A DNA stretch of 64,000 bases from positions 3,744 through 67,743 of IMG/VR virus record IMGVR_UViG_3300021400_001756. One strand, written 5' to 3'. The stretch comes from a virus (lineage: Duplodnaviria; Heunggongvirae; Uroviricota; Caudoviricetes). Within the stretch, counting starts at the first letter, position 1. Every line of letters starts with the position of its first letter. Below the pieces are notes generated by a model. It did no database searches. It saw only the letters and a program-made list of their open reading frames with translations, and was not told the DNA's origin. Below, one piece after another: positions 2,427 through 47,723 of the stretch. Position numbers and translations under genes: made by a program.

Positions 2427-3437
2427 TTAATATGTCCAACCAGCTTGAGTAAGTTCTGTCCATCTATTTTCATATCGTGTATTAGATATATTAGTACTTT
2501 GGAACGGACTAAATGCGTTACTTCCATTGACAAGTGTTTTAGTAGTTACACTAGTACAATTTAAAACAAAGTTTATTATATTTGTTACATCCATATCTGT
2601 TAAATTATTACACTTTTCAAACATACCTCCAATGTTTGTAATTTTATTTGGACTCCAATTGGAAATAGGTACGTTAGTTAAGTTATAACATAAACTAAAC
2701 ATCTTAGCTGTGTTAGTAACATTACTTACGTCCCAAGTTTCACATGAAGATGCATTTGCTAAATTATAACAGTATATACATAAGCTATCTAATCTTGTAG
2801 CACTATTTGTAACATTAAATTGAGGTAAATTACGTAATCCCACACATCCTCTTAATGTTTCTTGAAATGTAGTAGCATTAGCTGTATTTAGTGGAGGTAA
2901 ATCCATTACACTTTGACATCTAGCAAATGTTTGATACATATTCGTTACTTTACTTAAATTTAACTGAGGTACATGAACCAAAGCATAACAATTATAAAAA
3001 CATTGACTCATGTTACTTACATTATAAGTATTTACGTTAGGAAAAAACATTATATCTGGACTTTCGTAATATGCTCTATACATACTTGATTTATTATTAT
3101 TCCAGGTATTGTAAACATTTTTAGAATAGTTAACGTAGTAATCTAACTCTGTTGGAGCTGAGTTGTATCCAATTGCTTGCCAGTCATACATTACAGATTT
3201 GTTATCTACAATATTCTGTAATGTATTTATTTCATTATATAAATTTGTAATAAGTAAATTTTGTTGTTGTACAACAGGTTCTAAGTTACTAGTATCTCCC
3301 ATATTACTTATAATATTAGCATACTGTCTAAAAGGTGTATTTATCTGCACATCCTGCCCTTTATTCACTAAAGATTGTCTAATTAAATCTTTAGTTTCCG
3401 AAAGATATTCTATTTTACTAGCTATTGTATTATACAT
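2427..3437 (-). CDS. tail fiber / receptor-binding protein with BspA-type leucine-rich repeats
   Basis: There are six or more repeats of about 22 aa of the form NVTN(M/T)xxxFxxCxxLxxxP (LRR_5 / BspA-like). It lies in the distal tail module. Confidence 0.6.
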   Translation of the reverse strand: MYNTIASKIEYLSETKDLIRQSLVNKGQDVQINTPFRQYANIISNMGDTSNLEPVVQQQNLLITNLYNEINTLQNIVDNKSVMYDWQAIGYNSAPTELDYYVNYSKNVYNTWNNNKSSMYRAYYESPDIMFFPNVNTYNVSNMSQCFYNCYALVHVPQLNLSKVTNMYQTFARCQSVMDLPPLNTANATTFQETLRGCVGLRNLPQFNVTNSATRLDSLCIYCYNLANASSCETWDVSNVTNTAKMFSLCYNLTNVPISNWSPNKITNIGGMFEKCNNLTDMDVTNIINFVLNCTSVTTKTLVNGSNAFSPFQSTNISNTRYENRWTELTQAGWTY

Positions 3438-3451
3438 TAAAATCCTCCTAA

Positions 3452-3925
3452 TTAAAATTGCATATTATCTCCAACTTCGTATTCTCCGTTAATTAAGTCT
3501 AAAGCCTCTCCTATATCCCCTATCATATTATTAAGAATTCTACCTTGGTTTGCACTAAGAGCTTGAGTTGTAGATGTACTAGTTAAATTATCGACAATAA
3601 AAGTATTTTCTACACCATCATCCAATATTGCGTATAGTACGTCTTCTTCTAGTTCATTGTTATTTTGTAATTCATCATATTCTTGAGCAGTTAAAGATAT
3701 TATACCCTTAACACTTAAATCTTCACTAATAACAACATTACCAGGTAAATCAGAACCTAGTTGCTTCCAACGTGTTCCATCATATTGAAAATATTCTTTA
3801 CTTGTAGAGTTGTAATATAATTGTCCTAAAACACCTGTAGCTGGTTCTGTTGCTTGTACTTGAATTCTTACGTTTTTAATTTGATTATAATCCAAATCTA
3901 TATCCGATTTAAATGGTATCCCCAT
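3452..3925 (-). CDS. tail fiber-associated protein
   Basis: It shares the ALSANQGRILNN module with the partial fiber gene at 1..834 and lies between the baseplate J-like gene and the LRR fiber gene. Confidence 0.5.
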   Translation of the reverse strand: MGIPFKSDIDLDYNQIKNVRIQVQATEPATGVLGQLYYNSTSKEYFQYDGTRWKQLGSDLPGNVVISEDLSVKGIISLTAQEYDELQNNNELEEDVLYAILDDGVENTFIVDNLTSTSTTQALSANQGRILNNMIGDIGEALDLINGEYEVGDNMQF

Positions 3926-3941: not shown

Positions 3942-6137
3942 CTAGAATATACTTGTATTTGTATCTTGTATCTTTAATGATGACGCATCAAAATTAAATG
4001 TTTGTGTACTCAAATTTTTATATACAGCTATAGTAACTTTATTTTTTGTGTAGTTAACAATTAAGTCATCAGCTATTGGAGAGTTAAATTCTAGTGTGAC
4101 TTCTCCCGTTGTATAATCAATTTTACCGTTTCTTTGTAGTAAGTTCTCTGTATTATATATAGCTCCATTATTATTATCTCGTAATATATATTGTCCTCCA
4201 TTAACTCTTACCATTAAAGAACCAGGTAATATTGGAGCATTATCTAAAGTAAAATTATACACTAAGTCTTCTGATAGAACAGGGTTTTCTAATCTAGGTA
4301 CTTGTTTTGTATAGTACCCAATTAAATCCTCTTTATTAAGTTCATCTCCCTCTTCTGTTGTATATTTGATTGGGTCTAAATCTACCATTAAAATTCTATT
4401 ATCAACAGCTAATATAGTTTCTATTATTTCTTTATAATTTATAGCGGTATTAAAGTTTACTTTTTCCACAGAATAGTTAAATCTTAAGTCATTATTTATA
4501 TTAACAATCATTGTCTGTAATTCATCTAGTGTTAAAGGTTCTTTTGTATAAAAAGTTCCTGTAATTGTCCAGTAGAATTTTTGTATTGAATGTAAATCTA
4601 CTTGTAAATTTAATGGTAATATTTTGTATTGTTGCATATCTGATACTTCAGATAATATTAAAGATGTATATACTTCATCGTCCATGTCTTCATACTCAGG
4701 TGTTCTTAGTATATAAAGTTTAACAGTAAATGGGGATAATGTTTGTACACTATTTATAACTTGTTGTCCTATGTATCTACCTGCTGCTTCTACATCACCA
4801 TTTATAAAAGCTTCTAACATTTCTGCATCTTCATTTGATACAAAAGAGTCTTGGTTACAATCTGCTAATTGTTTTTGATATGGAGTAAGTGGATATTGAT
4901 TTGGTGCTTGTAAATAATTACGTAATAAATCTAAATCCTGCTCATTAATCTCACCATCCATATTTATATCTCCTACATAATGAGATATAGCAGTACCTGG
5001 GTCATTTGTTAAATCTGTAGCTCTAACATTAGCTACACCTGGTTCACGTAAACATGCTCTTTCAAAGTCTGCTAAAGTAATAAGTGTATCCAACGTATTG
5101 ATGTATTTAACAGATTCTTTTCTTGCTTCATCTGGAGTTTCTGGATTATATCCCCAACAACTATCATCATTAGTAAAATTTATAAATCCAGCAACATTAT
5201 ACATAGTAGTATTTGAACTTGTCTGTACTTTACTCCACACATTTCCAGTTAGTTTGGTAAGAGTGTTAGAAAATATTTGACCATTCTCACCGGCACTAAG
5301 TATATAGAAAATTTTAAACCTAGATACATTGTAGTTATCCCAATAATCTATTAACTCTAAATAAGGTCTATCATTAACATCTACGTCAAATTGGAAAAAT
5401 CTACCAACATCTGTAGTTAAATAAATATTTTCTTTTAATGTCCACTCGTTACCTGTATCATCAATCATTATAATATGGTCTTGGTCTATATTTGAATCCT
5501 TTAAATATATTCTATTATTTGTTATATCATCTACTGTATAATTATAACCATAAATTGTATGCCAAGCTTTACCTTCTTGAGCATAAGGCGAACTAGAACT
5601 TCTAACGGGAGTTACAGGTATACCTTGTATTAACTTGATTTTTGTCTCTTCACCATTATTAGTCATATTAGAAGGTAAATCGTAATAGTCAAATGTTGTA
5701 TATGTTATTTGACCATTGCTTGTAGTAAAGGTACAAAATCTAGGAATAGTTGCCATGTTAGAATATGTATTTATAACATTACAATAAAGTTCAGCTGACC
5801 TAAACCATTTCATTTTATAACCAATTAACTTATATATACTTGCAGCATTTTTTCGTAGAGTTACAGTACTAGGGTAAATCTCTAAAGATTCCATATCTTG
5901 TTGATAGTTTAACATATCACCCAATATTGCTATTAGTCTTACTAGAACCAATCCTGGGTCATTAGTATCCGTACTATTCCATTTTTGAGTAATAGTAGGA
6001 ATACTAGATATTAAATCATCCAATATTGTAGTGTAGTCTCTACTAGTGTAATCTATACGTTTAGCACTGTAATCTTCTTTTAAAACTTGATTTAATTGCG
6101 CCATTTGTAATACTATCATCCTTTCGTGTTTAATCAC
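3942..6137 (-). CDS. baseplate J (gp6)-like protein carrying an internal dockerin module
   Basis: It is 731 aa and sits immediately downstream of the gp25-like gene, which is the P2 W-J / T4 25-6 order. It contains the tandem calcium-binding repeats DINMDGEINEQDLDLLRNYL and DCNQDSFVSNEDAEMLEAFI, which make up a type I dockerin. The track start is GTG; an internal ATG start is possible. Confidence 0.6.
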   Translation of the reverse strand: MIKHERMIVLQMAQLNQVLKEDYSAKRIDYTSRDYTTILDDLISSIPTITQKWNSTDTNDPGLVLVRLIAILGDMLNYQQDMESLEIYPSTVTLRKNAASIYKLIGYKMKWFRSAELYCNVINTYSNMATIPRFCTFTTSNGQITYTTFDYYDLPSNMTNNGEETKIKLIQGIPVTPVRSSSSPYAQEGKAWHTIYGYNYTVDDITNNRIYLKDSNIDQDHIIMIDDTGNEWTLKENIYLTTDVGRFFQFDVDVNDRPYLELIDYWDNYNVSRFKIFYILSAGENGQIFSNTLTKLTGNVWSKVQTSSNTTMYNVAGFINFTNDDSCWGYNPETPDEARKESVKYINTLDTLITLADFERACLREPGVANVRATDLTNDPGTAISHYVGDINMDGEINEQDLDLLRNYLQAPNQYPLTPYQKQLADCNQDSFVSNEDAEMLEAFINGDVEAAGRYIGQQVINSVQTLSPFTVKLYILRTPEYEDMDDEVYTSLILSEVSDMQQYKILPLNLQVDLHSIQKFYWTITGTFYTKEPLTLDELQTMIVNINNDLRFNYSVEKVNFNTAINYKEIIETILAVDNRILMVDLDPIKYTTEEGDELNKEDLIGYYTKQVPRLENPVLSEDLVYNFTLDNAPILPGSLMVRVNGGQYILRDNNNGAIYNTENLLQRNGKIDYTTGEVTLEFNSPIADDLIVNYTKNKVTIAVYKNLSTQTFNFDASSLKIQDTNTSIF

Positions 6138-6256: not shown

Positions 6257-6647
6257 TTATCTATATGGATTATCCATAGGAGTTATATCCATATTGTATG
6301 TATTTATTTGATTGGTATCTTTTATAGTATATGTTAAATATATATTTAGTCTATCTACATCTTGAAATATTGTAATATCATCAGATGTCATTGTTATTCT
6401 AGGCTCATATTTAGATACAGCATTAAGTATGTCCTCTTTTACTAATTGCTGAATAATTATACCGTTATATCTAAAAACTCTTTCAATTAGTAAACAACCC
6501 CAATCTGGGTCACCTAACATTTCCCCGAGGTCTTGTTCTCAATAATATACCTAAACATTCATTTATTGATTTATTACCTGATGATAACATAGTCTTTTTA
6601 GATGACCTACTTATCATCTGTGGAAAACTAAATGTTGTTTGATTCAT
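6257..6647 (-). CDS. baseplate wedge protein gp25/GpW-like, split by an apparent -1 frameshift near 6521-6530
   Basis: The upstream 46-aa frame (ATG at about 6647, aggagg RBS) ends in ECLGILLRTRPRGNVR*. The downstream frame MLGDPDWGCLLIERVF...AVSKYEPRI continues the T4 gp25 alignment (SLLGIITTRKGSRPFDPEFGC...AVRNYEPRI). The junction lies in a cggggaaatg run. Confidence 0.65.
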
Positions 6648-6651
6648 ATAC

Positions 6652-8340
6652 TTATCCTCCTATAATCTTTCTAACTAACTCAATACCCGTATTCTTAATA
6701 GTATTTACTGTTTGTGTGAATATGTTTGTTCCATTATATATTTGACCTTCTACTATAGGTTGTGGGTCTATAGCTTCGCCATCTTTACGAATTTCAAAAT
6801 GTAAATGTGGTCCAGTACCAATACCTGTATTACCTACATATCCTATTACTTGTCCTGCTTTAACTTCAACTCCAACCGATATACCTGGAGCAAATCTACA
6901 CTGATGAGCATATCTTGTTTGATAGTTATTTGGGTGGTCTAAATAAATAACATTACCGTAACCCGATGCCCAACCTGCATAAGCTATTTTACCTGAACTA
7001 GATGCAATTATTTCTTTTCCCATAGCATTACCGCCTGAGATATCAATACCTTTATGATACGTACTAGCTCCAGCTGTTGGTGCTGACCTAGGTCCAAACT
7101 TTGATGTAATTGTAGTTAATTCTGTTACGGGCCAAAAGAATTTATTTCCATTAACTAGATTTGATAAGGCATTACCTATAAATCCAATAATACCATTACC
7201 TCCTGTTGGAGTAACACTAGTTAAAGAATTATCTGTTAATTTTCCAGCTGTATATAATTCTTTTATATACTCCAAAGTACGTCTTCTTCTAGACAAGTAA
7301 TTACCTGTACAACCCGACCAATAATTATAATACTGTTCGGCTTGTTGGTATAAATCTCCTGTACTATTTTGTATTGAATAAGCTTTATTCATACATCCTC
7401 TTAAATTAGGTGAACGTGAACTATTATTTATACCAGTACCATACTGATTCATTATATCTGAACACATAATTAGTAAGGAAGGACTAGTTACCTTAAAATC
7501 ATTTACTAACTTATCTACATAGTCTGTTTGTATATTACTACGAGCATAAGTTAATTGTGTTTGTCTACCTAAATCAGAGTTTATACACTCTTTTATAGCT
7601 CTATAAGCTGGATTACTTTGCCAAGGTTTATAACCTTCAAAATTATTTCTATGAGTATTACGTCCATTAGTTGTAACATCTTCCTCTAAACATCTATACA
7701 AATCACATCCAGCAGCACCTGCAAATAAAAACTTATTTTTCCAAGAAGTATCTGCCTTAGCTATTTCATACATTAAATCATATGCTAAACAATTGTGCCA
7801 CTGTATAATACCAATACTCCATCCACCGTTATCGTCCGGGTCAACAAAACCAAATGTATCATGGCCACCAGCGCTTTCTGGAATGTTATCTGGATAACTA
7901 TTATGAGGTATACCTACCTCATTTTCTAACATAATAGGCATAATAAGTTCTACCATACCACTAGCACCAATAGAACTATATGAACCCATAGCACCTGAAG
8001 TTCCAACGCCCATTAAAGCTATATTATTAGGGTCATACATATCTGCACCTAATATAACATAACTACCACTAACATTCTCCACAGTATTAACATATACTAT
8101 ACAACCTATAGCTAAATTACCTACTAAAGATACTGCCCATGGAAATAAATCTTTATATTCACTTTCCGTTTTATTTGGGTCTTCAAAATAAGTATTAAAT
8201 TGAGATTCTATATCTGATTGTATTGATGGAATATATACTTGTACCCTATTTTTGCCTTCGGGGTCTTGTGTTGTATCAGCATTTACTACTATAGCAGCGT
8301 ATATAGAATTTAAATATGTATTATCATTATAGACTTGCAT
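6652..8340 (-). CDS. tail-associated peptidoglycan hydrolase with C-terminal M23 (LytM) peptidase domain
   Basis: The C-terminus reads HKGIDISGG...YAHQ...GYVGNTGIGTGPHLHFE, which is the M23 HxxxD ... HxH signature. Its position just before the gp25-like gene matches a spike or tail lysin. Confidence 0.8.
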   Translation of the reverse strand: MQVYNDNTYLNSIYAAIVVNADTTQDPEGKNRVQVYIPSIQSDIESQFNTYFEDPNKTESEYKDLFPWAVSLVGNLAIGCIVYVNTVENVSGSYVILGADMYDPNNIALMGVGTSGAMGSYSSIGASGMVELIMPIMLENEVGIPHNSYPDNIPESAGGHDTFGFVDPDDNGGWSIGIIQWHNCLAYDLMYEIAKADTSWKNKFLFAGAAGCDLYRCLEEDVTTNGRNTHRNNFEGYKPWQSNPAYRAIKECINSDLGRQTQLTYARSNIQTDYVDKLVNDFKVTSPSLLIMCSDIMNQYGTGINNSSRSPNLRGCMNKAYSIQNSTGDLYQQAEQYYNYWSGCTGNYLSRRRRTLEYIKELYTAGKLTDNSLTSVTPTGGNGIIGFIGNALSNLVNGNKFFWPVTELTTITSKFGPRSAPTAGASTYHKGIDISGGNAMGKEIIASSSGKIAYAGWASGYGNVIYLDHPNNYQTRYAHQCRFAPGISVGVEVKAGQVIGYVGNTGIGTGPHLHFEIRKDGEAIDPQPIVEGQIYNGTNIFTQTVNTIKNTGIELVRKIIGG

Positions 8341-9790: not shown

Positions 9791-10034
9791 CTACTTTCTC
9801 AACTTGCAAACTAACTAACAAGTTCTGTTCTTCACTTTGTGAACTAGTGTTAAAAATTAAGGGCTCACTATCTCCACCTATTTGAACTTTAATCCATGTA
9901 GTATATACAGACGTATTAGCAACCATATTACTAACACTATTTAAAACAGTATTAAAACGAGTATTTAATTTCTCTCTATCCATTGTAGCTACAACGTTAG
10001 AAAAATTTTTACTATACGTACGTCTAGTTACCAC
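9747..10034 (-). CDS. hypothetical tail protein
   Basis: A 95-aa ORF overlapping its neighbours by a few codons, suggesting an operon with translational coupling. Confidence 0.4.
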   Translation of the reverse strand: MVTRRTYSKNFSNVVATMDREKLNTRFNTVLNSVSNMVANTSVYTTWIKVQIGGDSEPLIFNTSSQSEEQNLLVSLQVEKVGARYNKYFYFTIHL

Positions 10035-10449
10035 TTAACACACCTCCTCTATTGTATAAAGAAAGCAGTGGTGGTATACGAAGCTTAGTGCCTATACTAA
10101 GTGTAAATGGGTCTATAATATAATTTGCTAATGCTATAACCCACCAATATCTAGCCGTACCGTAATAATCATTAGCTATAATATCCAATCTATTTTCTTC
10201 ACGTTGTGTTACAACAAAATAAGTATCCTCATTGGATTCATCTATGAACTTTTGAATCCAATTTTCGTCATATACATATTTAGTTTTTTCATCTCTTAAA
10301 CGTCTTATATTAGTATATCTACTTTCATTTGGATATAACCTAGGACTTAAATAAGGCCTTTGAGTAAATATCTCTCTTATATCTTGTAGATATGCTGGCG
10401 AAACATTTTTATATCTTATTGTATACTTTTTTCTATTACTTGTTGACAT
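10024..10449 (-). CDS. LysM-like tail protein (P2 gpX-like)
   Basis: The C-terminal segment VVTQREENRLDIIANDYYGTARYWWVIALANYIIDPFTLSIGTKLRIP has the LysM pattern. Confidence 0.5.
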   Translation of the reverse strand: MSTSNRKKYTIRYKNVSPAYLQDIREIFTQRPYLSPRLYPNESRYTNIRRLRDEKTKYVYDENWIQKFIDESNEDTYFVVTQREENRLDIIANDYYGTARYWWVIALANYIIDPFTLSIGTKLRIPPLLSLYNRGGVLSGN

Positions 10450-10458: not shown

Positions 10459-11304
10459 CTACCTTACATCCATTACTTGACCACCCATAGCATTGTCTGT
10501 TCTATAATTAGTTCTTGAACGCATATTATCTCTTTGTAATACATCTGCTCCAGCAGTAGCAATACTAGGAAAATTAGTATTATATGTATTTTGTGTGCTA
10601 GATGAACTATAGTTCTCTATTAAATCTCTAGCTGATACAATGAAATCTGGGTAACAATCCATACTAATATCTACACTATTCCAACCATAAAATGTATTTA
10701 TGATTGGTTTTTTCCATGTAGTAGAGTAGCTTGTTACATAACCCTTTAATATCATTTGTCCAAATATAAAATATGTAGTAGGTGGTATAAGTCCACTACT
10801 TGTATATTGAGGATAACATGCCATTTGTAACATTTTATTCATACTAACATACCAAGTTCTAGTATCGAATGGACCATCTGGAGATTGCTTTTGTTTACCC
10901 GCACTTTGATATGCTGGATGTCCTCCAACACTTAGCATTACATTATTAGTTAACGAATAACTACCTGTTAAAAAGTCCCTATGAAGGTCTAAAGAAAAGT
11001 TTACAGATTTTAAACTAGTATGTGCGTAAGCTGCAATACTTGATGACCTACCTAATGGGTCTTGTTTTTCCCAAGATGGTGATATAGATTCTGTTACTTG
11101 GTCTGGATATGCAGGTATCTCTATTAAATACTCATAATCTCCTCCAACACCAAATCTATTAGGTTTACCATACTTTAGTAACATATAACACTCAAATTGT
11201 TTAAATCCAGGTATACCATTTGTTCCCCAAGCAGGTCCCCAAGCTTCATAATATTCATATCTAGTTTGGGGTGATTGCTCTATAAAATCATCGTATTCTG
11301 GCAT
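10459..11304 (-). CDS. hypothetical tail/baseplate protein
   Basis: A 281-aa ORF in the tail module. Confidence 0.5.
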   Translation of the reverse strand: MPEYDDFIEQSPQTRYEYYEAWGPAWGTNGIPGFKQFECYMLLKYGKPNRFGVGGDYEYLIEIPAYPDQVTESISPSWEKQDPLGRSSSIAAYAHTSLKSVNFSLDLHRDFLTGSYSLTNNVMLSVGGHPAYQSAGKQKQSPDGPFDTRTWYVSMNKMLQMACYPQYTSSGLIPPTTYFIFGQMILKGYVTSYSTTWKKPIINTFYGWNSVDISMDCYPDFIVSARDLIENYSSSSTQNTYNTNFPSIATAGADVLQRDNMRSRTNYRTDNAMGGQVMDVR

Positions 11305-13367
11305 TATTTGCTCACCTCCGAAATATTTTCACTCATGTTTACATCTTGTTCTAGTATAGCTTCAGACTGTACATCTAACCAGCCCAACATAAAAGATATA
11401 TTATAATTACGTAAGTTTTTAGTTGTACCATCTACTTCAGATTCTAATAATTGATAATCCAATTTGTTTACTGTACCGTCTTTATTTATATCTGCTCTGT
11501 TAATTTGTGTTTTACTAACAGGGTTGCGTTCATTATTTAAATACTCTTGTATAATAGCCAAATCTTTACTATCAATTACACCATCGAAATTAACATCTGC
11601 CTTCTGTAATTGTTTTTCTGTTAAGCTTCCTGTACCATTTAGATAGTTACTTAGTAGTGTAAAATCTTCTTGTGTTATATAGCCATCTCCATTTATATCT
11701 GAATTTAAATACTCAATTACACTACGCTCTAAAATTAAATCATCTCTGTTTATTTTACCGTCTCTATTTAAATCACCTATATCATAATAAACAACAGATT
11801 CTTGAAATTGTGTAACTAAATTTCGCATATTATCACTATACTTACCTGGATAAAAATAACTTTTATCATAAGAATGTTCTGGATATTTATCTTTTAATAA
11901 TTTTTGTAGATAAGTTATATCTTCTGAATCACTGTATTTATGAATTGCAATACCTAATAAATAGTTAAAAAATTTATCGTGTATAACCCAATCATTTTCT
12001 GTAAATTCACTAAATGGTATATTAACATCTCTACTATAGTGTCCATCTATTATCAATAAATTTTCAACATTATCTCCAGTACCTTGTATAGAATCTGTTG
12101 TATCATATTTATATGTAACATACCCTAAAGATGGTTGTGAAGATTGACCTGTAATAAATTTATATAATTCTTTAGCATCATTTACATCTATTATACCATC
12201 CTTACTAGCTTTACCATCTACACCGGGAATAGGTATATCCATAACAGCTAATTGTTTAGGTGTTGGATTCCAATGTAGTTCTTCAGAACCAGGTCCTTCA
12301 GCTGTATATCTAGCAAGTAAGTGATAATCTATCATATCTATTTTACCATCAAAGTTAATATCTCCAACACGTAATAGCATTTCTCCTTGTTCATATCCAC
12401 TTAACGAGTTATAATCTGAAGGGCATTGTATACACACATAATTGGCGTTATATCCAGTTCCTTCAGCTTTACTAGTAGTTGTATATTGATAGCCTTCTCC
12501 AGGCTTTAAATCTAATTCTTGTACGTTTTGTAATATAAAACTAGGTATATTATCTCTTAATGTAGCACTACTACATCCAATAACTAAATGTTCTGTTTTA
12601 TTACTATTGTGTGCTATTGTTATTTTCTGTCCGGGTTTACATTTATATAAAGCTATTTTATGTGTTTTAGATGTATCTGGATGAGGTAAATTATCATACC
12701 CCTCTCCATTTCTTATAGCATAATTATACATAAATGAACCATCGAATTGATTTACAAAAACTAACATATCTTTGTTAGGGAAGTAATTTTTACGAGATGA
12801 CTTTTTAATTGTTATATATAATCGTGTATTAAGTATATAATTATCAAATACTTCCAAATCTTCATCATTTACTAAGCCATCTAAATTTATATCAGCTCTT
12901 TTAGTTATTTCTGAATCATATTGCTGTATACCATTAGCTATATTATATATAATTTCTCTATCTTGAGCATCAACAACACCATCTAAATTTATATCCATGT
13001 TAGTATCAAACCAATCAAATGTATCTCCTAATTCCCATCCAACACTAAGACAGTAATTTCTAATATCATTTAATTTTCTATGAATGTATTCAGAGCATTC
13101 CATGGATAATTGTTTAGATGCGTACACAATCTCATCATCTTTAAGTTGTATACTAAATAAAGAGTGTAGTTCCGGAAATAATTGTACTATTTCACGTTGT
13201 ACTTCTGTCATTAACTTAACATTAGGTAAATTTAAATAATTAATCAAAGTATATAAATCTTCTTTTTGAAATTTACCCAATATTTTATTAGACCTTCCGT
13301 ATTCGTTATTTAAAAATCTTTTAAGATATCTAACTAAGTAGTTATCCATACCAAATTTTATATTCAT
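11304..13367 (-). CDS. tail protein with multiple dockerin-type calcium-binding repeats
   Basis: It contains eight D-x-N-x-D-G-x-(I/V)-(D/N)-xx-D repeats (DINLDGVVDAQD, DINLDGLVNDED, DINFDGKIDMID, DLNRDGKINRDD, DINGDGYITQED, DVNFDGVIDSKD, DINKDGTVNKLD and others). These are arranged in pairs, each followed by LxxYL helices, which is the dockerin type I architecture. Confidence 0.6.
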   Translation of the reverse strand: MNIKFGMDNYLVRYLKRFLNNEYGRSNKILGKFQKEDLYTLINYLNLPNVKLMTEVQREIVQLFPELHSLFSIQLKDDEIVYASKQLSMECSEYIHRKLNDIRNYCLSVGWELGDTFDWFDTNMDINLDGVVDAQDREIIYNIANGIQQYDSEITKRADINLDGLVNDEDLEVFDNYILNTRLYITIKKSSRKNYFPNKDMLVFVNQFDGSFMYNYAIRNGEGYDNLPHPDTSKTHKIALYKCKPGQKITIAHNSNKTEHLVIGCSSATLRDNIPSFILQNVQELDLKPGEGYQYTTTSKAEGTGYNANYVCIQCPSDYNSLSGYEQGEMLLRVGDINFDGKIDMIDYHLLARYTAEGPGSEELHWNPTPKQLAVMDIPIPGVDGKASKDGIIDVNDAKELYKFITGQSSQPSLGYVTYKYDTTDSIQGTGDNVENLLIIDGHYSRDVNIPFSEFTENDWVIHDKFFNYLLGIAIHKYSDSEDITYLQKLLKDKYPEHSYDKSYFYPGKYSDNMRNLVTQFQESVVYYDIGDLNRDGKINRDDLILERSVIEYLNSDINGDGYITQEDFTLLSNYLNGTGSLTEKQLQKADVNFDGVIDSKDLAIIQEYLNNERNPVSKTQINRADINKDGTVNKLDYQLLESEVDGTTKNLRNYNISFMLGWLDVQSEAILEQDVNMSENISEVSK

Positions 13368-13520: not shown

Positions 13521-16500
13521 TTAATCTTTTATTAAAGAGAATATGGATTTCATTTTTTTCATACTATTACGTGTATTTATATCGGTATCTGTTAAACTAG
13601 GATAACTATCTCCTTGTACAACTCTAATTAACTCATCTATTTTATTACACAATGTTGTAGTTTGGTCTTGTATAATAGTTTCAAAGTTGTAAGATTGATG
13701 TTTAGTATCTCTGTATTCCGATACTAAAGTTCTTAACTCGTTTGCCGTACTTGCTGTTAATACTGCTTCATCCTCATGTAATAATGCTGGGTAATTATCA
13801 TAAGGTACACGATTTAAACCTCTTCTTAATAAGTTAAAGTCTTTCTTAAGTGCTTCTTGCTGGTCATCTCTATCTGGAAAACCTAAATAATTGTAACCAT
13901 CTCCCGTCATTAAATGTACATCATACTTATGTAAAAATTTAAATATATCACGTAATTGCTCTGCACGAGTTATACCAGCTGTATGTAGAGCATCACCTAA
14001 TGCTGATTTATTGTTACTTAAATCTTCAAAATTTAATTCCTCACTGATAGGACCCATAATATCTGATTCCCCAGCTAAACCTTGATACATTGCCGCAATT
14101 TGTAAAGCCGCAGCTACACTCGCTACATTTATACCACTATAAGATTTCTCATGTAATAAAGAGGCTAACATTGCCAATAGTAATTTATTGTATTCTCGGT
14201 CTTTATGATTTCTTTTAAAATCCTCTAAGGCATTACCAGCTTCCTTAGAACCTGATAAATACCAATGTTTAGTTATACCATATTTTTTAGCTGTATTATC
14301 ATCTGACCAGTTAAACATTCTAAGTAATTGATTTTTATAGTATTCTGTACCATAATCCCCATTATTTCCAATGCTGTGGAACATTCCTCCTATTTCCGCC
14401 CCTACGTCTGAAACGCCAACAGCATTAAAAGATAACATATTATTATTGTGAGCCCCAGCTTCTTGACGTTCTCTTGCACCATATGCCTCCTTTGCTCCTT
14501 TAGTATTAGAAATAGTGCCAGACGCTACAGCATAATTTATAGCTTTTTGTTTTGCATCTTTATCCTTAGAATCTTCATCTTTTTTACGACTTTCTGCTGC
14601 AATTCCAGATGCAACAGCTGCTAAAGCTGCAACACCTACACCTACACCTGCTACAGCTAAACCTATTGGTCCTGTAGCTGCTAAACCAGAACCTATAGTT
14701 TTTATCAATCCGCCACTAGCTGCTAATCCCTTACCGCCGGAACCTCCAATCATACCTGCTATATTACCTATACCATCAGTAAATATCTTAGTGATGAGGA
14801 TGGTGCCAATACTTTTAATTGCATCTACTATTAAATCTCCTACAACACCCATCTTTGCTTGTAATTTTGCCATTTCTGTACTTATATTTTCCATAGTTAA
14901 CTCTTGCATCTCTTTTTCAGTGTTGTAAATACCATCAACTAAGTTTTGTGTTTCTTGTTCACTTGCTGCTACAACTTGTTCCTTAGTTAAGTTTGTTTGG
15001 TCTACCAAAGATGAACCAGTTATACCTTTCTCCTTTAATTGATACATTGCTCTTCTATTGCCAGGATTAATACCTAAAGCACTACCTACAATGTTAGTAG
15101 TTAATCCCTGTCTTGCATTACCGTATCCAGGAGCGTTACCCATTAACATCATATCTGCATCAACCATGACACCCATAGCATCATTCCATTTTGTTGGGTC
15201 CTCGTAGTCAATACCCTGAGCTATATTATTGATAACATGCATCTTTTGAGCAACTGTACCGTTTTGTATCATTGAATCAGAATAATTCATCATTTGGAAC
15301 AATTCTTTTCCATATGATTCTGCTACATCTTTACTAACTCCTTGTTTTATAAGAGAGTTCACATAAGCAGTAACTTCTGCTGAACCTTGTGCTAAATCTT
15401 CCAGTGCTTTATCAGATATTGGTTGTACCTCGTTAATAATGGTATTTAACATATCCTGAGTAGCATAATTATTACCGGCTATCTCTTTATTAAGTACATT
15501 TATTCCTCTAATATCCTTAACAAACCTATTATCCAATCTATTGTTGATAAGGCTAAATTCTGTACTTGTTGTATCCAAATAAGGTACTATTTTTTGAGTA
15601 ACTACTGTATCTAAAGCCGATTCAAATACTTGTCCCTCACTCATACCGGTTTTTGCTAAAACATCCCATTGCTCCATAACTGTGGATGTACCAACATTAT
15701 CTATTAAACCAGCAGATTTAATATTTCTGTTGGCATTGGTCCACTGACTTCTATATGTATCCCTATTTATATTCAAACGTGCGGCTACACTATCATAAGT
15801 ATTATTATAAGCATCTACTTGTTTTTGTGCACCACTAAAAAATAAATCCATAAATTTTTTAGCTACGCTAGATAAAAGTTTACCTGCTTCGTTAAGTACA
15901 TCTCCAGCTAAACTTAATTTTTTATTTGCATCATCTCTATTTTTATTAGCTTTTTTAGCTTCTGGACTTTTTAATCTATCTTCTTCTAATCGTCTTTCGG
16001 CAATTTCACGAACTTTTGACTCTTCTATGTTGTGTCCTTTATCTTGTAATCTTTTTAAAATTGCTTTAGTCTCATTATTTAAAACTTTTTCCTGTGAATT
16101 AAAGATACTTTTATCTCTAACATACGAACCCCAATTTAAAATACCATAATTTTTAAACTTAGGTCCTTGTTTATTAAGTTGTTCTTGTTTTAATCTTCTA
16201 GCTTCTTCAGCTCTTTCTTGTTGTCTTTGTCTTACTGTTTTTTGTGTAGTTTTTTGACCTTTCTCTAATTGTTGATTTTGCTGCTTAAGGATATTTAGTA
16301 ACACTAATGCTTCATTAGCTTCTTTTTGCATAGCTTTTAGAGAATTTTCATCTATACGAGCACCTTCTGTCTTAATTTTTATGCTCATACCCTCTAAACT
16401 ATTTATTATTTTTTGTTTTTTGTCAATCCAATTTTCTACCTCTTTACTAGATGAATCTGCGAAATTATCTAGTAGATTATTTAGTTGTGTTAACATATCT

Positions 16501-16580
16501 GCAGCTTTTTGTAAGTTGTCTATATCTACCATACTCCAACTTTTTCCAAGAGCTGATATTGATTGTTTTCCTTTAGGCAT
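13521..16580 (-). CDS. tail tape measure protein
   Basis: It is 1019 aa with an N-terminal coiled coil, a central Gly/Ala-rich hydrophobic segment and a long helical C-terminus, and lies upstream of the baseplate genes. Confidence 0.8.
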   Translation of the reverse strand: MPKGKQSISALGKSWSMVDIDNLQKAADMLTQLNNLLDNFADSSSKEVENWIDKKQKIINSLEGMSIKIKTEGARIDENSLKAMQKEANEALVLLNILKQQNQQLEKGQKTTQKTVRQRQQERAEEARRLKQEQLNKQGPKFKNYGILNWGSYVRDKSIFNSQEKVLNNETKAILKRLQDKGHNIEESKVREIAERRLEEDRLKSPEAKKANKNRDDANKKLSLAGDVLNEAGKLLSSVAKKFMDLFFSGAQKQVDAYNNTYDSVAARLNINRDTYRSQWTNANRNIKSAGLIDNVGTSTVMEQWDVLAKTGMSEGQVFESALDTVVTQKIVPYLDTTSTEFSLINNRLDNRFVKDIRGINVLNKEIAGNNYATQDMLNTIINEVQPISDKALEDLAQGSAEVTAYVNSLIKQGVSKDVAESYGKELFQMMNYSDSMIQNGTVAQKMHVINNIAQGIDYEDPTKWNDAMGVMVDADMMLMGNAPGYGNARQGLTTNIVGSALGINPGNRRAMYQLKEKGITGSSLVDQTNLTKEQVVAASEQETQNLVDGIYNTEKEMQELTMENISTEMAKLQAKMGVVGDLIVDAIKSIGTILITKIFTDGIGNIAGMIGGSGGKGLAASGGLIKTIGSGLAATGPIGLAVAGVGVGVAALAAVASGIAAESRKKDEDSKDKDAKQKAINYAVASGTISNTKGAKEAYGARERQEAGAHNNNMLSFNAVGVSDVGAEIGGMFHSIGNNGDYGTEYYKNQLLRMFNWSDDNTAKKYGITKHWYLSGSKEAGNALEDFKRNHKDREYNKLLLAMLASLLHEKSYSGINVASVAAALQIAAMYQGLAGESDIMGPISEELNFEDLSNNKSALGDALHTAGITRAEQLRDIFKFLHKYDVHLMTGDGYNYLGFPDRDDQQEALKKDFNLLRRGLNRVPYDNYPALLHEDEAVLTASTANELRTLVSEYRDTKHQSYNFETIIQDQTTTLCNKIDELIRVVQGDSYPSLTDTDINTRNSMKKMKSIFSLIKD

Positions 16581-18645: not shown

Positions 18646-18888
18646 TTTTGCATTATCTAATGCTTTACGTTTTGCTTCATTTTCTTCTTTCTTTAATTCT
18701 ATAAGTTTATTGATAACATAAATTCGTTCATACTCATCCATATTATTTGTATCCTCAAAACTAATTCCAGAAGATAATTGACATATAACTATTTGTTGGT
18801 CTAGGATATCATTTAGGTCCTCTTTATTGTATTGATTTTTCTTTTCTTTGTACTCTTTATTTTTAGAATCATTAGATATCCTCATCAC
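18634..18888 (-). CDS. hypothetical protein (charged, coiled-coil)
   Basis: 84-aa ORF. Confidence 0.45.
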   Translation of the reverse strand: MMRISNDSKNKEYKEKKNQYNKEDLNDILDQQIVICQLSSGISFEDTNNMDEYERIYVINKLIELKKEENEAKRKALDNAKNKK

Positions 18889-19663
18889 TGGGATTGAATA
18901 GTTCGTATGTTATAGGTAAACCATGTGTTACTTCACTTTTACACTTAGGACAAAGTGTTTTTAAATCTTGAGATAAACCATAATCAGCACTTAACTTATT
19001 TATAGCTTTTCTTAGTGTTTTAAAGTCTACTATATCCATACTGTTAATATAATCTTCTTTTTCCTCTGCTAATAGTGTTTTACCATTAACCTTATCTATA
19101 TATATTAAATTAGTTTCTGTAAGTAACTTTTCTTGTCTATTAACATTAGGAAATCTATCGAAGAATTCTTCAAGAGTTTCTCCTAACTTAATAAGTTTAT
19201 TTAAATTTGGTACATCTAAATCTATTGTTTGTTTAGATATAGGTAACGTTACTTTTAGCTTATCTTTAATATCATCTGTTAAGTAATCTACAGGAACATC
19301 TGATAAATGAATTTCATGTATAAATTGAGCACCACAATGTGGACATGTAACTGTTACTTTGTATTTATCTGTTAATAAGCTTAATACCCTTAGTTTAAAT
19401 AATAAAAAGTTTGCATCCGATAACTTTAATTTTCCACAATCAACTGGAACTTGTGATACAATACAAGCATTTAATAAATCTTTAGTTACTTGTGTGTTGT
19501 CGTCACTTCTATATCTTAATTTTTCCTCAGCTGTTGTCATTCTTCTTAGTGTGATTGCTTCAGGTATACCATCCTCAGGTTTGTATAACAAACCTCTACT
19601 AGGTAATGTAAATGTATCCTGTTGTTTAATATTAGTTATTTCTGGCATAATGTCTTTTTCCAT
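18872..19663 (-). CDS. hypothetical protein with two CxxC pairs (zinc ribbon)
   Basis: CPHCG ... CPKCK. It lies directly downstream of the terminase large subunit gene. Confidence 0.5.
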   Translation of the reverse strand: MEKDIMPEITNIKQQDTFTLPSRGLLYKPEDGIPEAITLRRMTTAEEKLRYRSDDNTQVTKDLLNACIVSQVPVDCGKLKLSDANFLLFKLRVLSLLTDKYKVTVTCPHCGAQFIHEIHLSDVPVDYLTDDIKDKLKVTLPISKQTIDLDVPNLNKLIKLGETLEEFFDRFPNVNRQEKLLTETNLIYIDKVNGKTLLAEEKEDYINSMDIVDFKTLRKAINKLSADYGLSQDLKTLCPKCKSEVTHGLPITYELFNPSDEDI

Positions 19664-19723
19664 AATATCTCTAATCTACCTCCATTTAATTTTTTATATT
19701 ATTATACATATATAATAACATCT

Positions 19724-21850
19724 CTAGATTATAACCATTCCGTCACTAAACATATTATTATACATATTTAACAATTGTTCATCAGATAATTGTGAATCAC
19801 TATTTGTTTTTCTTATATTACTTAATATTTGATTATCTCGTTCTATTTGTTTATTTATATTTTGTTCTATTACATCCTCATCGTCTGTAACATCAATTGT
19901 TTGAAGTTTATTATTTTGAACGAATGAAAAATATTTATCTGCAACATTCTCATTAGGATTCAATGTTAATATATCCGAATTAGTATTACTTGTAAGTGTT
20001 ACGTTTTCCATATAATCTAGTTCATCTAAATTAACACTTAATACAGCATTATATATAGCTCCACCTATACTATCTGAAATATCTTTTCCAACAGATTTAA
20101 CTTTAGTTCCATCTTCTAATATTTTTATAGATTGTTTAGGGTGGTCTACTTTACCTGTAGCTTCATTTTTCTCTAGATTAGTTATTTCTCTAATTAGTTC
20201 CTGTATTTTTAATAATTTAATTCGTTGTTCCACTAAAACATTTCTAAATGTAGTGTATCCAATACATTCTTTATTCTTAATAATATCCATAGATACTTCT
20301 TTTACATCAAAACCATCTAATTTTAAACTTTGTAATAACATTAAGCTTTGGTATCCATCACAACTTACACCTACAATGTTCCAACCTAAATCATACTTTA
20401 AGTAGTGTATAAAATCTTTAACTTTTATCATACTTAATTCATCATTAGCTGGACATTGTATACCTACAGAGAACACGTGTCTAAATACCATTTCCTTTAA
20501 TAAACTTGTATCTCCTGTATCTGTATATCTTTCTTGGTTTTTATAACCTAGAACAGCAACTGCACTTATTCCTGTCATATCCCCACTTTTAGATAAGTCA
20601 CAGTGAATATAAATCTTTTTACTATATAACATAATTGGAACTAATTGAGGTAAGAAATAATCTTTAATTTGATTTTTATCCGCCATACCTGTTTTTATTA
20701 TTTCAGAACTAAATGGGTTTACTCCCTTACCTATACAAGGCTCTACTAATCTATAAGGTATATATTTATAACTGGATTGTACTGCTATACCACAAGTATC
20801 AATAAGTGTTCTATTTAAATCCATTTCAAATCTATGTAACATTTCTAAAGGGATATCTATTACTTCATATCCTTTCATTTCTGCCTCTTCAATCTCTTCT
20901 TTACTTACATTTGTGCCCATTATATAACTTGTTAACAATTCATTACCAACCGCTAATTTAAACCATTTACCACTAAACATACTTAATGGTTTTACTTCCC
21001 ACTGTTTATATCTACTTACATGCATTCCAGGTTGACCTTCGTTATCTCTAATGAAACTTTCTAATACAGCATTTGTAGATTTAGCAGAACTGATGAGGTA
21101 CATTCTACCTTGAATTCTACCACCTTTCATAAAACGTGAAGATAGACGTAAATATAACTGATTGTATATTTGCATCATTCCTGCTTGCATGTACTCAACA
21201 TTATCATTATCTCCAAAAGACATTTCATCTATGGCAACAAATTGAACAGCAACAGATAATGCGTGTTCCTCTGTAGAACCAATACCAAGTCTAATGTCTT
21301 TTTTAGGTTGATATACTAAATTTGTTCTTCCAGTAACAGTACCTCGTTCCATAAACCACGGACTCATTTGTAAAGCTTTTTGAAATTTACCCCACATTGT
21401 TTTTTCTGCTAATTTTAAATTAAGGTTAAAAAATAAAATCCAAATAGTTTCATTTGCTTCCAGATAATATCTGTTTGGATTTTTAAGACACATTAACTTA
21501 TACAATTCATAACATAAAGAGTATGTTGCCACAGTTGATTTACCTGTACCTGTACTTCCAGTTATTGCCCACTGGTCCACAAAGTTTATTGGATTGTGAA
21601 CATAATATAATTCTTTTTTCCAAGTTTCATAGATATCCTTACCGTAGTTAGTGTACTTACCTAAGTACTGCTCATTACTTAAAAATGTCCAAATATCTAC
21701 AGGTATTTCCTCATAATCATCATAATATAAATTATCTAATTTTTCGGATGAACCATTTTGTATTAAGTCACCCATAATAGATTTAAGTTCATTAATCTCA
21801 CTTTCACTTAATTGTGTTAGCGTTTTTAAATCTGTATCATTCTCTAACAA
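19724..21850 (-). CDS. terminase large subunit
   Basis: A Walker A motif ITGSTGTGKST and a Walker B motif VAIDEMSF are followed by the IHCDLSKSGDMTGISAV nuclease-like region. The architecture is co-linear with T4 gp17. It has a TTG start with a ggaggt RBS. Confidence 0.8.
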   Translation of the reverse strand: MLENDTDLKTLTQLSESEINELKSIMGDLIQNGSSEKLDNLYYDDYEEIPVDIWTFLSNEQYLGKYTNYGKDIYETWKKELYYVHNPINFVDQWAITGSTGTGKSTVATYSLCYELYKLMCLKNPNRYYLEANETIWILFFNLNLKLAEKTMWGKFQKALQMSPWFMERGTVTGRTNLVYQPKKDIRLGIGSTEEHALSVAVQFVAIDEMSFGDNDNVEYMQAGMMQIYNQLYLRLSSRFMKGGRIQGRMYLISSAKSTNAVLESFIRDNEGQPGMHVSRYKQWEVKPLSMFSGKWFKLAVGNELLTSYIMGTNVSKEEIEEAEMKGYEVIDIPLEMLHRFEMDLNRTLIDTCGIAVQSSYKYIPYRLVEPCIGKGVNPFSSEIIKTGMADKNQIKDYFLPQLVPIMLYSKKIYIHCDLSKSGDMTGISAVAVLGYKNQERYTDTGDTSLLKEMVFRHVFSVGIQCPANDELSMIKVKDFIHYLKYDLGWNIVGVSCDGYQSLMLLQSLKLDGFDVKEVSMDIIKNKECIGYTTFRNVLVEQRIKLLKIQELIREITNLEKNEATGKVDHPKQSIKILEDGTKVKSVGKDISDSIGGAIYNAVLSVNLDELDYMENVTLTSNTNSDILTLNPNENVADKYFSFVQNNKLQTIDVTDDEDVIEQNINKQIERDNQILSNIRKTNSDSQLSDEQLLNMYNNMFSDGMVII

Positions 21851-21882
21851 TATTTGTCTACCTCCAAAACATATCTTGTTTT

Positions 21883-21899
21883 CGTTAATATTTTACAAG
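21883..21899 (-). promoter_or_regulatory. conserved promoter-like motif (CTTGTAAAATATTAACG)
   Basis: About 33 nt upstream of the terminase TTG start. The same 17-mer occurs at 27852. Confidence 0.4.
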
Positions 21900-22169
21900 A
21901 TTTTATAGAATTTGAAATTTAGGTATTTACAAAACAAATCTATCATGTTATATTATCTATTGATGAACATACATTGTATACACAGAGTTAATTTATTATT
22001 TTTTAGTACTTAATAATTTATCTGTTAGTTCCAAAGGCTACAAATCTAGTTGTATTTATTTGTGTGTTTGTCGAATTATAACTTTGAAAGTTTACTATAA
22101 AATAGTTTTTGGGCCACTACATCAATAAGTTATGCAAGCTTTTATTCTATATAACGGTATACGAGTCCG

Positions 22170-22241
22170 AAAATCACAAAATTAAATTTCATGTGAACTA
22201 TTCCATTAAATCACGAAATTAAATATTCATGTGAACTATAT
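22170..22241. repeat. two tandem imperfect 36-bp direct repeats (aaatcacRaaattaaatWttcatgtgaactat...)
   Basis: Seen directly in the 600-bp non-coding gap between the tube and terminase genes. Confidence 0.6.
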
Positions 22242-22420
22242 TAGAACAAAAATTATTTATAGTAAAGCTTTCGTTTTTAAATTCATAAAGTGTGGTAATT
22301 TGTTGTAGGAGACAGACTATTACACTTTTTTAATTTTTAATAATGTAATTACATTATTTGTTGTTTAAAACTTGTTATTTTTGATTGTAGTACGAAATAA
22401 AGACATTTTTAAAGATAATA

Positions 22421-22452
22421 AAAAGGATACATTTTATTGTATCCTTTTTATT
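22421..22452 (-). terminator. rho-independent terminator after the tail tube gene
   Basis: A hairpin aaaggatac-N8-gtatccttt has T-runs on both sides. Confidence 0.55.
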
Positions 22453-22456
22453 TTTA

Positions 22457-32983: not shown

Positions 32984-33059
<76 letters not shown>

Positions 33060-33069
33060 GTCATTTAAA

Positions 33070-33155: not shown

Positions 33156-33164
33156 AAAAACAAA

Positions 33165-33240
<76 letters not shown>

Positions 33241-47722: not shown

Positions 47723-47723
47723 T

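What the first reader, a model, noticed from the sequence alone, without database searches (positions are those of the whole stretch)
11304..13367. Tail/baseplate protein built from about four dockerin modules (eight Ca-binding repeats)
The repeats have the form D-I/V-N-x-D-G-x-I/V-N/D-xx-D followed by L..YL helices and occur in pairs. This is the type I dockerin signature of cellulosomal enzymes, which bind cohesins on scaffoldins. Dockerins in a phage tail protein suggest the virion docks onto cohesin-bearing cell-surface structures. They also hint that the host is a cellulosome-producing clostridial species, but this is speculative.
Basis: partly seen in the sequence, partly recalled or inferred. 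Interest (0 to 1): 0.75.

Follow-up and report, generated by a model that had tools for sequence, protein, structure and literature searches.

The report
Dockerin-studded baseplate protein of rumen phage
A large uncultured rumen phage has inserted several genuine dockerin modules, the calcium-dependent "plugs" that bacteria use to build cellulosomes, into two of its tail-baseplate proteins; this suggests, but does not prove, that the virus uses the bacterial plug-and-socket system to stick to cells.

Summary

The gene sits between a tape-measure-like gene and baseplate genes of a contractile-tailed phage of about 175-220 kb. An identical protein occurs in sheep-rumen metagenomes.

Dockerin-free relatives of 375-406 aa occupy the same gene slot. 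The dockerins are therefore later insertions into an older core: a PG_binding_1-like domain, a CBM-like beta-sandwich and a second PG_binding_1 domain. A second baseplate protein of gp6/gpJ type (3942-6137) carries 1 dockerin here and 2-4 in relatives.

Ca-binding residues are conserved, while the cohesin-facing positions 10/11 are hypervariable. No cohesin was found in the window or its flanks.

Best reading: exposed, multivalent, Ca-dependent adhesion modules on the baseplate, probably binding cohesin-type partners on cell surfaces. The binding partner and the host are untested. A cellulosome-producing clostridial host is not shown.

The parts
11304..13367 (-). Whole gene: 687-aa dockerin-bearing post-tape-measure tail-tip/baseplate protein
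   Evidence: ORF; Dockerin_1 128 bits; 179 homologue clusters, many on 160-213 kb contigs; conserved synteny.
13008..13367 (-). N-terminal domain (aa 1-120): PG_binding_1-like helical bundle plus a small alpha/beta subdomain. It is shared with the dockerin-free relatives.
12822..13007 (-). Dockerin module 1 (aa 121-182; Ca loops at 125 and 159)
   Evidence: 34.1 bits alone; PDB dockerins align to profile positions 124-180; absent from remote relatives, so it is an insertion.
12369..12818 (-). CBM-like beta-sandwich domain (aa 184-333)
12153..12368 (-). Dockerin module 2 (aa 334-405; loop at 336; second loop about 376-397 interrupted by an insertion)
   Evidence: 28.3 bits, first half only; second loop is canonical in relatives; first helix is unusually conserved; dockerin-like sequence at this position in P0270 and P0287, absent in P0277, P0285 and P0314.
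11784..12152 (-). Beta/alpha region plus first two helices of a PG_binding_1 domain (aa 406-528)
11418..11783 (-). C-terminal dockerin array (aa 529-650; loops at 532, 557, 591, 626), inserted inside the PG_binding_1 domain
11307..11417 (-). Conserved C-terminal tail (aa 651-687): the displaced last segment of the PG_binding_1 domain ('ISFMLGWLDVQSEAILE')
   Evidence: Aligns to 'ISFSLGYLDVESEALMAE' of P0287 and equivalents, scoring 37-59 against 15-22 for the alternative register.
13521..16580 (-). Upstream neighbour: 1019-aa tape-measure-like protein
   Evidence: Assigned by position, length, and a coiled-coil plus Gly/Ala-rich hydrophobic stretch. No family hit. Same slot in relatives at 931-1154 aa. 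This is an inference.
10459..11304 (-). Downstream neighbour (281 aa); its start codon overlaps the dockerin gene's stop codon
   Evidence: No family hit. Conserved in relatives.
10024..10449 (-). Baseplate wedge subunit (phrog_7145; weak match to T4 gp53 family)
   Evidence: phrog_7145 E 1.7e-20; Pfam Phage_gp53 is weak.
6652..8340 (-). Tail-associated M23 peptidoglycan peptidase (562 aa)
   Evidence: PF01551 104.5 bits.
6257..6520 (-). gp25-like baseplate wedge subunit (87-aa ORF)
   Evidence: phrog_261 and phrog_43; GPW_gp25 weak.
3942..6137 (-). Second dockerin protein: gp6/gpJ-type baseplate wedge protein (731 aa)
4800..4973 (-). Dockerin module inserted in the gp6/gpJ-type protein (aa 389-446)
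2427..3925 (-). Fibre-like proteins: Phage_fiber_rpt (3452-3925) and DUF285/BspA-like (2427-3437)
   Evidence: Further fibre proteins with Collar/Gp10_C lie just beyond the window's left edge.
18872..24753 (-). Rest of the contractile-tail module: hub (18872-19663), tube (22457-23176), sheath (23176-24753)
   Evidence: PF12322 and phrog_150, phrog_45, phrog_23.

Best explanation
The gene encodes a structural tail-tip/baseplate protein of an uncultured contractile-tailed phage of about 175-220 kb that is found in the sheep rumen.

Shown:
- An ancestral protein of about 400 aa sits just after the tape-measure-like gene. It consists of a PG_binding_1-like N-domain, a CBM-like beta-sandwich and a C-terminal PG_binding_1 domain.
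- That core has acquired true dockerin-fold modules at three sites: between the N-domain and the sandwich, after the sandwich, and inside the last domain.
- The gp6/gpJ-type wedge protein of the same baseplate has a fourth insertion site, holding 1-4 dockerins.

Inferred:
- The modules are solvent-exposed decorations.
- Because the protein has no signal peptide and is made in the low-calcium cytoplasm, the modules would become fully folded and binding-competent only after lysis, in the calcium-rich rumen fluid.
- They then act as multivalent, Ca-dependent protein-protein adhesion modules that plug into cohesin-type modules on the surface of the host or its scaffoldins.
- This holds the baseplate at the cell envelope, alongside the peptidoglycan-binding and CBM-like domains, while separate fibres with a Collar/Gp10_C tip give specific recognition and the M23 peptidase opens the wall.
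For: - Virion and baseplate context: sheath, tube, hub, tape-measure-like gene, this gene, wedge subunit, M23, gp25-like and gp6/gpJ-like genes are in one orientation. The stop codon overlaps the next start, and no terminator lies between them. The order is conserved in relatives at 43-57% identity.
- Accessory nature: dockerin-free (P0277, P0285, P0314) and Doc2-only (P0270, P0287) relatives exist. P0270 sits in the identical slot.
- Copy-number plasticity: 4-8 loops per family member. L006 has a nested extra dockerin. The wedge protein holds 1-4 dockerins at one hot-spot.
- Selection pattern: Ca positions 1, 3, 5 and 12 are 93-100% conserved, while recognition positions 10/11 have about 3 bits of entropy in Doc1 and the array. 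This resembles the species-specific recognition residues described for type I dockerins (PMC12484212).
- Habitat: an identical protein occurs in sheep-rumen runs SRR873602 and SRR873599. Rumen Firmicutes are rich in cohesins and dockerins, including non-fibrolytic ones (PMC6487960).
- No phage-encoded cohesin was detected.
Against: - No binding data exist, and no cohesin-bearing host has been identified.
- Only about 75 kb of a genome of about 175 kb or more was examined for cohesins, and divergent cohesins can escape Pfam.
- Dockerin-like modules occur widely without known cohesin partners (Peer et al. 2009, as cited in PMC6487960).
- Hypervariable positions 10/11 are equally expected if that surface has no function.
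- The first helix of Doc2 is highly conserved, which suggests it packs against the core or binds a conserved partner rather than a variable host ligand.
- The position directly after the tape-measure-like gene could mean a central rather than peripheral location in the baseplate. Model coordinates could not be inspected, so exposure is not shown.
- No virion proteomics are available.
Confidence: 0.4

Rival explanations
1. Self-assembly plug. The dockerins bind cohesin-like or other sockets on another virion protein of the phage, such as fibres or outer baseplate proteins. In this reading they serve modular virion assembly, not host binding.
For: Two different baseplate proteins carry dockerins. 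The first helix of Doc2 is as conserved as the core, as expected for a fixed internal partner. The gene overlaps the start of the next structural gene. About 100 kb of the genome was not examined.
Confidence: 0.17
2. No cohesin is involved. The modules are Ca-binding structural elements: stabilisers, spacers or Ca sensors that couple baseplate stability or triggering to extracellular calcium. Alternatively they bind a non-cohesin ligand.
For: Only the Ca-ligand and hydrophobic-core positions are conserved, while the surface positions drift. Many dockerin-like modules have no known cohesin (cited in PMC6487960). The modules sit in loops and linkers of a core that already has peptidoglycan- and carbohydrate-binding-type domains. 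No cohesin was found.
Against: The sequences score much better as type I dockerins than as EF-hands. They superpose at 1.0-1.8 A on dockerins solved in cohesin complexes. Repeated independent gain and multiplication at four sites in two proteins looks like selection for avidity rather than for stability.
Confidence: 0.3
3. Not a virion protein. It would be a phage-encoded accessory or lysis-associated cell-wall protein that is recruited through its dockerins into the host's cohesin scaffolds during or after infection.
For: PG_binding_1 domains are typical of endolysins and spore-cortex lytic enzymes. A Ruminococcus phage (PV036439.1) has a non-tail-context protein with a C-terminal dockerin.
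Against: There is no catalytic domain and no signal-peptide-like N-terminus (read from the sequence). The gene is embedded, co-oriented and overlapping within the tail/baseplate genes in every relative.
Confidence: 0.06

Closest known systems
Cellulosomal type I dockerins (e.g. C. thermocellum Xyn10B/XynY dockerin, PDB 1OHZ/2CCL; Pfam PF00404)
   Same: Duplicated 12-residue Ca loop plus helix at about 34-residue spacing. 33% identity and rmsd 1.1 A over 61 residues on the predicted model. Ca ligands are conserved and positions 10/11 vary.
   Different: The modules are internal insertions, 3-4 per protein, in a phage structural protein. There is no signal peptide, no catalytic module and no cohesin partner in view. 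Cohesin and Ca binding are untested.
Double-dockerin module of C. thermocellum Clo1313_0689 (PDB 8X39)
   Different: The first two loops of the phage array are only 25 residues apart, and relatives have 2-4 loops. The array is inserted inside a PG_binding_1 domain.
Non-cellulosomal dockerin-cohesin pairs, e.g. C. perfringens NagH-NagJ toxin complex (PDB 2OZN)
   Different: That is a bacterial secreted-enzyme complex. There is no evidence linking this phage to C. perfringens.
Accessory adhesion domains displayed on phage structural proteins (Ig-like, BACON, CBM, FN3 decorations); from general knowledge, not tested here
   Same: Non-essential, copy-number-variable domains are inserted into conserved virion proteins, and homologues lack them.
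   Different: The domain type is a dockerin, a protein-protein module with a dedicated partner fold, rather than a glycan-binding module. I found no paper describing this.
Small peptidoglycan-binding (LysM) tail-tip proteins encoded near the tape measure in other contractile systems (P2 gpX, PBSX XkdP, T4 gp53); from general knowledge
   Same: A peptidoglycan-binding-type domain protein is encoded next to the tape-measure-like gene, with conserved synteny.
   Different: The fold is PG_binding_1, not LysM, and the protein is much larger and multi-domain. No homology has been shown. The family is absent from PHROGs.
Hypothetical protein XTK83925.1 of Ruminococcus phage NatCom_28274 (PV036439.1, human faeces)
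   Same: A phage-encoded protein with a Pfam-significant Dockerin_1 (45.8 bits), in a phage whose record names a Ruminococcus sp. host.
   Different: It has a single C-terminal dockerin in a 362-aa protein. It lies near DNA invertase and DNA polymerase genes rather than in a tail module, and it is unrelated outside the dockerin.

Membership tests
Type I dockerin module (PF00404) | Profile match above the curated threshold, and better than EF-hand profiles | tested here: met
   128.3 bits overall. Single modules score 28-63 bits against a cutoff of 22.9. EF-hand models always score lower and are below their cutoffs on the whole protein.
Type I dockerin module (PF00404) | Two duplicated segments, each a 12-residue Ca loop (D/N at positions 1, 3, 5, 9, 12) followed by a helix, about 34 residues apart | tested here: met
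   Loops at 125/159, 557/591 and 591/626 are spaced 34-35 residues apart. Doc2 has a longer, interrupted second loop, and 532/557 are spaced only 25 residues apart. Positions 1, 3, 5 and 12 are 93-100% conserved.
Type I dockerin module (PF00404) | Three-dimensional fold superposable on solved dockerins | tested here: met
Type I dockerin module (PF00404) | Calcium-dependent folding and binding | not testable with these tools
   Only the conservation of the ligand residues is known.
Cohesin-dockerin system (functional membership) | A cognate cohesin (PF00963) partner exists and is bound | tested here: inconclusive
   No cohesin was found in window ORFs of 100 aa or more or in flanks of the same phage and relatives. 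The rest of the genome and the unknown host were not examined. Binding is not testable here.
Cellulosomal component | Secreted protein (signal peptide) with a catalytic or CBM module and a usually C-terminal dockerin | tested here: not met
   The N-terminus MNIKFGMDNYLVRYLKRFLNNEYGR has no hydrophobic signal-like stretch (read; no predictor was run). There is no catalytic domain. The dockerins are internal.
   On the whole protein EF-hand_5 scores 24.8 and EF-hand_7 23.6 bits, both below cutoff, against 128 bits for Dockerin_1. There is no thrombospondin hit.
PG_binding_1 (PF01471) domain | Profile match or a demonstrable homologue, plus the three-helix fold | tested here: inconclusive
Phage baseplate/tail-tip structural protein | Encoded within, and co-oriented with, the tail/baseplate genes, with synteny conserved across relatives | tested here: met
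   Presence in virions is not testable here.
gp6/gpJ (Baseplate_J) wedge protein (for the second dockerin protein, 3942-6137) | Fold and profile similarity to gp6/gpJ-type wedge proteins | tested here: met

The most novel reading that the evidence does not exclude
A lineage of large rumen and gut phages has captured the bacterial cohesin-dockerin system. It displays arrays of dockerins on its baseplate to dock virions onto cohesin-bearing scaffoldins or surface proteins of its host. This would be the first natural case of cohesin-dockerin-mediated virus attachment. The rapidly evolving positions 10/11 would track host cohesin specificity.
Probability: 0.3. Interest if true: 0.8.

Novelty: new variant of a known kind. 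Interest (0 to 1): 0.62.

Why it matters
Dockerins are studied almost entirely as the assembly plugs of cellulosomes and related bacterial complexes. This case has several unusual features:
- They are repeatedly inserted and multiplied in two baseplate proteins of a widespread phage lineage.
- The phage lives in the rumen, where cohesins abound.
- Together these give a concrete, testable hypothesis for how phages might target fibre-degrading or other cohesin-displaying bacteria.

If binding is confirmed, three things follow. It would add a new class of phage adhesion module. It would give a sequence-readable specificity code (positions 10/11) for host prediction. It would also offer ready-made, naturally multivalent dockerin scaffolds for engineering.

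Even if no cohesin is involved, the series from dockerin-free through one dockerin to many dockerins is a clear example of domain accretion in virion proteins. The core protein family itself matches no PHROG family.

Tried and rejected
- tblastn of the whole protein against 50,697 phage records found no match. With the C-terminal array at E<=0.1 there were only 4 weak hits.
- The finding protein had no PHROG match at E<=0.01, and a lenient pass at E<=1 gave only insignificant hits for it, the tape-measure-like, 281-aa and 471-aa proteins and P0270.
- Cohesin search: Pfam on every window ORF of 100 aa or more that was not already confidently assigned by PHROGs, some packed into pseudo-proteins. 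The Serglycin hits there are artefacts of my Gly-Ser spacers. Nothing was found.
- The BFVD viral fold search gave only weak, uninformative matches, apart from showing that 'Dockerin type 1' proteins exist in uncultured phages.
- Host identification failed. The major capsid protein is only about 30% identical to Bacillota myoviruses and the sheath matches are weaker. The genome-contig scan gave three MAG labels, Romboutsia, Bacilli and Clostridia, which may reflect composition-based binning. GC content (28%) is not decisive, because large virulent phages can be far more AT-rich than their hosts (general knowledge).
- My early assumption of a human-gut origin was rejected once the sample accession was traced to sheep rumen.
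- The giant multi-dockerin protein P0267 was on a contig holding only that gene.
- The promoter and terminator scans were not above the shuffle expectation.
- The idea that the 281-aa neighbour is a gp48/gp54-type tube initiator rests on memory only and found no support.
Full report
**1. The observation**

The window holds an ORF at exactly 11304..13367 on the minus strand (687 aa). Pfam Dockerin_1 (PF00404) matches with E 1.2e-37 and 128.3 bits in four stretches. All EF-hand models fall below their gathering scores on the whole protein.

Scored separately, the segments give these Dockerin_1 bit scores, and each time the score is higher than any EF-hand model:
- aa 116-190: 34.1
- aa 328-405: 28.3
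- aa 526-585: 38.3
- aa 550-616: 63.3
- aa 585-650: 58.0

Canonical loops D-x-N-x-D-G-x-[IV]-x-x-x-D start at aa 125, 159, 336, 532, 557, 591 and 626. An eighth loop, paired with 336, is interrupted by an insertion in this protein but is canonical in relatives.

The DNA copies are only 61-72% identical, so these are old duplications and not an assembly artefact.

**2. Context**

The window has about 28% GC, and almost all its genes are on the minus strand. It carries a head module and a contractile-tail module:
- 50288-51784: prohead protease
- 48576-49979: major capsid protein
- 23176-24753: sheath
- 22457-23176: tube
- 18872-19663: T4-type hub protein
- 13521-16580: 1019-aa tape-measure-like protein (assigned by position and composition only)
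- 11304-13367: the dockerin protein
- 10459-11304: 281-aa protein whose start overlaps the dockerin gene's stop
- 10024-10449: baseplate wedge subunit (phrog_7145; weak match to the T4 gp53 family)
- 6652-8340: M23 peptidase
- 6257-6520: gp25-like subunit
- 3942-6137: a second Dockerin_1 protein
- 2427-3925: fibre-like proteins

Just beyond the window's left edge lie two more fibre proteins, one with Collar and Gp10_C domains, and then the portal gene.

**3. Relatives and provenance**

There are 179 homologue clusters. Full-length relatives are 47-59% identical, and many lie on contigs of 160-213 kb. Gene order is conserved.

No deposited phage genome has a homologue. The capsid protein is about 30% identical to large Bacillota myoviruses such as Listeria LIS04, Bacillus SP-15 and Streptococcus GXN1.

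An identical protein is encoded on contigs from runs SRR873602 and SRR873599 and on 175-kb scaffolds. Those runs are sheep-rumen metagenomes (Shi et al. 2014, PMC4158751).

Relatives sit in MAGs labelled Romboutsia sp., Bacilli and Clostridia. This is weak host evidence. One relative carries anaerobic ribonucleotide reductase genes (read from the sequences, not scored).

**4. Anatomy and history**

The exhaustive profile search found shorter relatives that share only the core. In P0270, P0277, P0285 and P0287 the region homologous to window aa ~460-525 passes Pfam PG_binding_1. P0270 (476 aa) lies in the identical slot: sheath, tube, hub, 1154-aa tape-measure-like gene, P0270, then M23 and gp25.

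Aligning these with the window protein gives an accretion series:
- P0277, P0285 and P0314 (375-406 aa) have no dockerin.
- P0270 and P0287 have dockerin-like sequence only at the Doc2 position (P0270 gave no Pfam Dockerin_1 hit at E<=0.001).
- The window's family adds Doc1 between the N-domain and the sandwich.
- It also adds a C-terminal array inserted inside the PG_binding_1 domain. The window's tail 'ISFMLGWLDVQSEAILE' matches the end of that domain in the short relatives, scoring 37-59 against 15-22 for the alternative register.
- L006 (886 aa) has a further beta-domain plus dockerin nested within Doc1.

Family members have 4-8 loops. In the wedge protein, one hot-spot between the motifs 'DLTNDPG' and 'GF.VKLY' holds 1, 2 or 3-4 dockerins.

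**5. Selection pattern**

Ca-ligand positions 1, 3, 5 and 12 are 93-100% conserved in loops 125, 159, 336, 532 and 626. The classical recognition positions 10/11 have about 2.6-3.4 bits of entropy. The exception is the first half of Doc2, whose helix is nearly invariant.

**6. Search for a partner**

No Pfam cohesin was found in any window ORF of 100 aa or more, or in the precomputed annotations of flanking genes in this phage and its relatives. The remaining roughly 100 kb of the genome and the unknown host could not be examined.

**7. Interpretation**

Shown:
- The modules have a genuine dockerin fold.
- The genes have a baseplate context.
- The modules are accessory and vary in copy number.
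- The phage occurs in the rumen.

Inferred:
- The modules are exposed and act as Ca-dependent multivalent adhesion plugs for cohesin-type sockets on the host surface.
- They work with the PG_binding_1 and CBM-like domains, while dedicated fibres and the M23 peptidase do recognition and wall penetration.
- The lack of a signal peptide means the protein is made in the low-Ca cytoplasm. Binding competence after release is plausible (general knowledge of Ca-induced dockerin folding) but untested.

I put this model at about 0.4. The rivals are:
- A purely structural or Ca-sensing role, or a non-cohesin ligand: about 0.3.
- A phage-internal partner: about 0.17.
- A non-virion role: about 0.06.

The claim that the host is a cellulosome-producing clostridium is not supported by any direct evidence. 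The rumen habitat only makes a cohesin-bearing host plausible. In bovine rumen, 70-75% of cohesins and dockerins are from Firmicutes, mostly Ruminococcus, and many are non-fibrolytic (PMC6487960).

**8. Novelty**

I found no paper describing natural dockerin-bearing phage tail or baseplate proteins. Neither the rumen virome database paper nor a large jumbo-phage survey mentions dockerins.

Automatic names such as 'Dockerin type 1' do exist for uncultured phage proteins. One Ruminococcus phage record has an unannotated protein with a C-terminal dockerin.

The domain type is known, and accessory adhesion domains on virions are known. A dockerin as that accessory, accreted at four sites in two baseplate proteins, is a new variant. 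The core protein family itself is absent from PHROGs.

Noticed in passing
window 42634-48362 (- strand; ORFs 42634-43329, 43469-44272, 44320-45183, 46041-46520, 46629-47135, 47150-47722, 47724-48362): Seven otherwise unrelated ORFs sit between the major capsid gene (48576-49979) and the early region. All begin with a nearly identical N-terminus, 'MN[EQ]KD[RK]L.E.TMLALQGKL.E'. It looks like a shared capsid-targeting or propeptide signal with an L-x-E protease site for internal head proteins. The prohead protease is at 50288-51784.
   Followed up: no
window 6257-6650 (- strand): The gp25-like baseplate subunit appears split into a 45-aa ORF and an overlapping 87-aa ORF, whereas relatives encode one protein of 130-142 aa. 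The same split is called on several contigs of this phage from three samples. It may be a real frameshift or a programmed event rather than a sequencing error.
   Followed up: no
window 32984-35228 (- strand): A cluster of eight tRNA genes (Thr, Tyr, Asn, Glu, Pro, Met, Gln, Ser) lies between the early and structural regions.
   Followed up: no
window 855-1268 and 1288-2328 (- strand): A free-standing 137-aa HINT/PT-HINT (intein-like) ORF and a family-2 glycosyltransferase are embedded among the tail-fibre genes.
   Followed up: no
window 19724-21850 (- strand) versus L001 48-4292: The 708-aa protein upstream of the hub gene corresponds by position to a 1414-aa protein with an intein-splicing domain in a relative. 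This suggests intein presence/absence polymorphism.
   Followed up: no
window 30606-31439, 38898-39401, 37384-38370, 27935-29308: RNA/DNA repair-type genes: RNA ligase 1-like, a HAD domain of 'Swiss Army Knife' RNA repair proteins, a phosphoesterase and an ATP-dependent DNA ligase. These could counter host tRNA-cleaving defences.
   Followed up: no
window 55300-56142 (- strand): A 280-aa protein with an N-terminal hydrophobic stretch, an Asn/Gln-rich coiled-coil-like region (both read from the sequence) and a C-terminal 3D domain (PF06725). It is a possible cell-wall-active or lysis-related protein.
   Followed up: no
L006 17815-22295: The 220-kb relative appears, by reading the sequences, to encode anaerobic ribonucleotide reductase (NrdD/NrdG-like) and serine hydroxymethyltransferase right after the baseplate genes. 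This fits a strictly anaerobic host (not scored against profiles).
   Followed up: no
P0267 (2796 aa, L017) and P0283 (1868 aa): Giant proteins with 21-29 dockerin-like stretches are among the best non-family hits of the profile. P0267 fills an entire 8.4-kb MAG contig. Their origin and function are unknown.
   Followed up: partly
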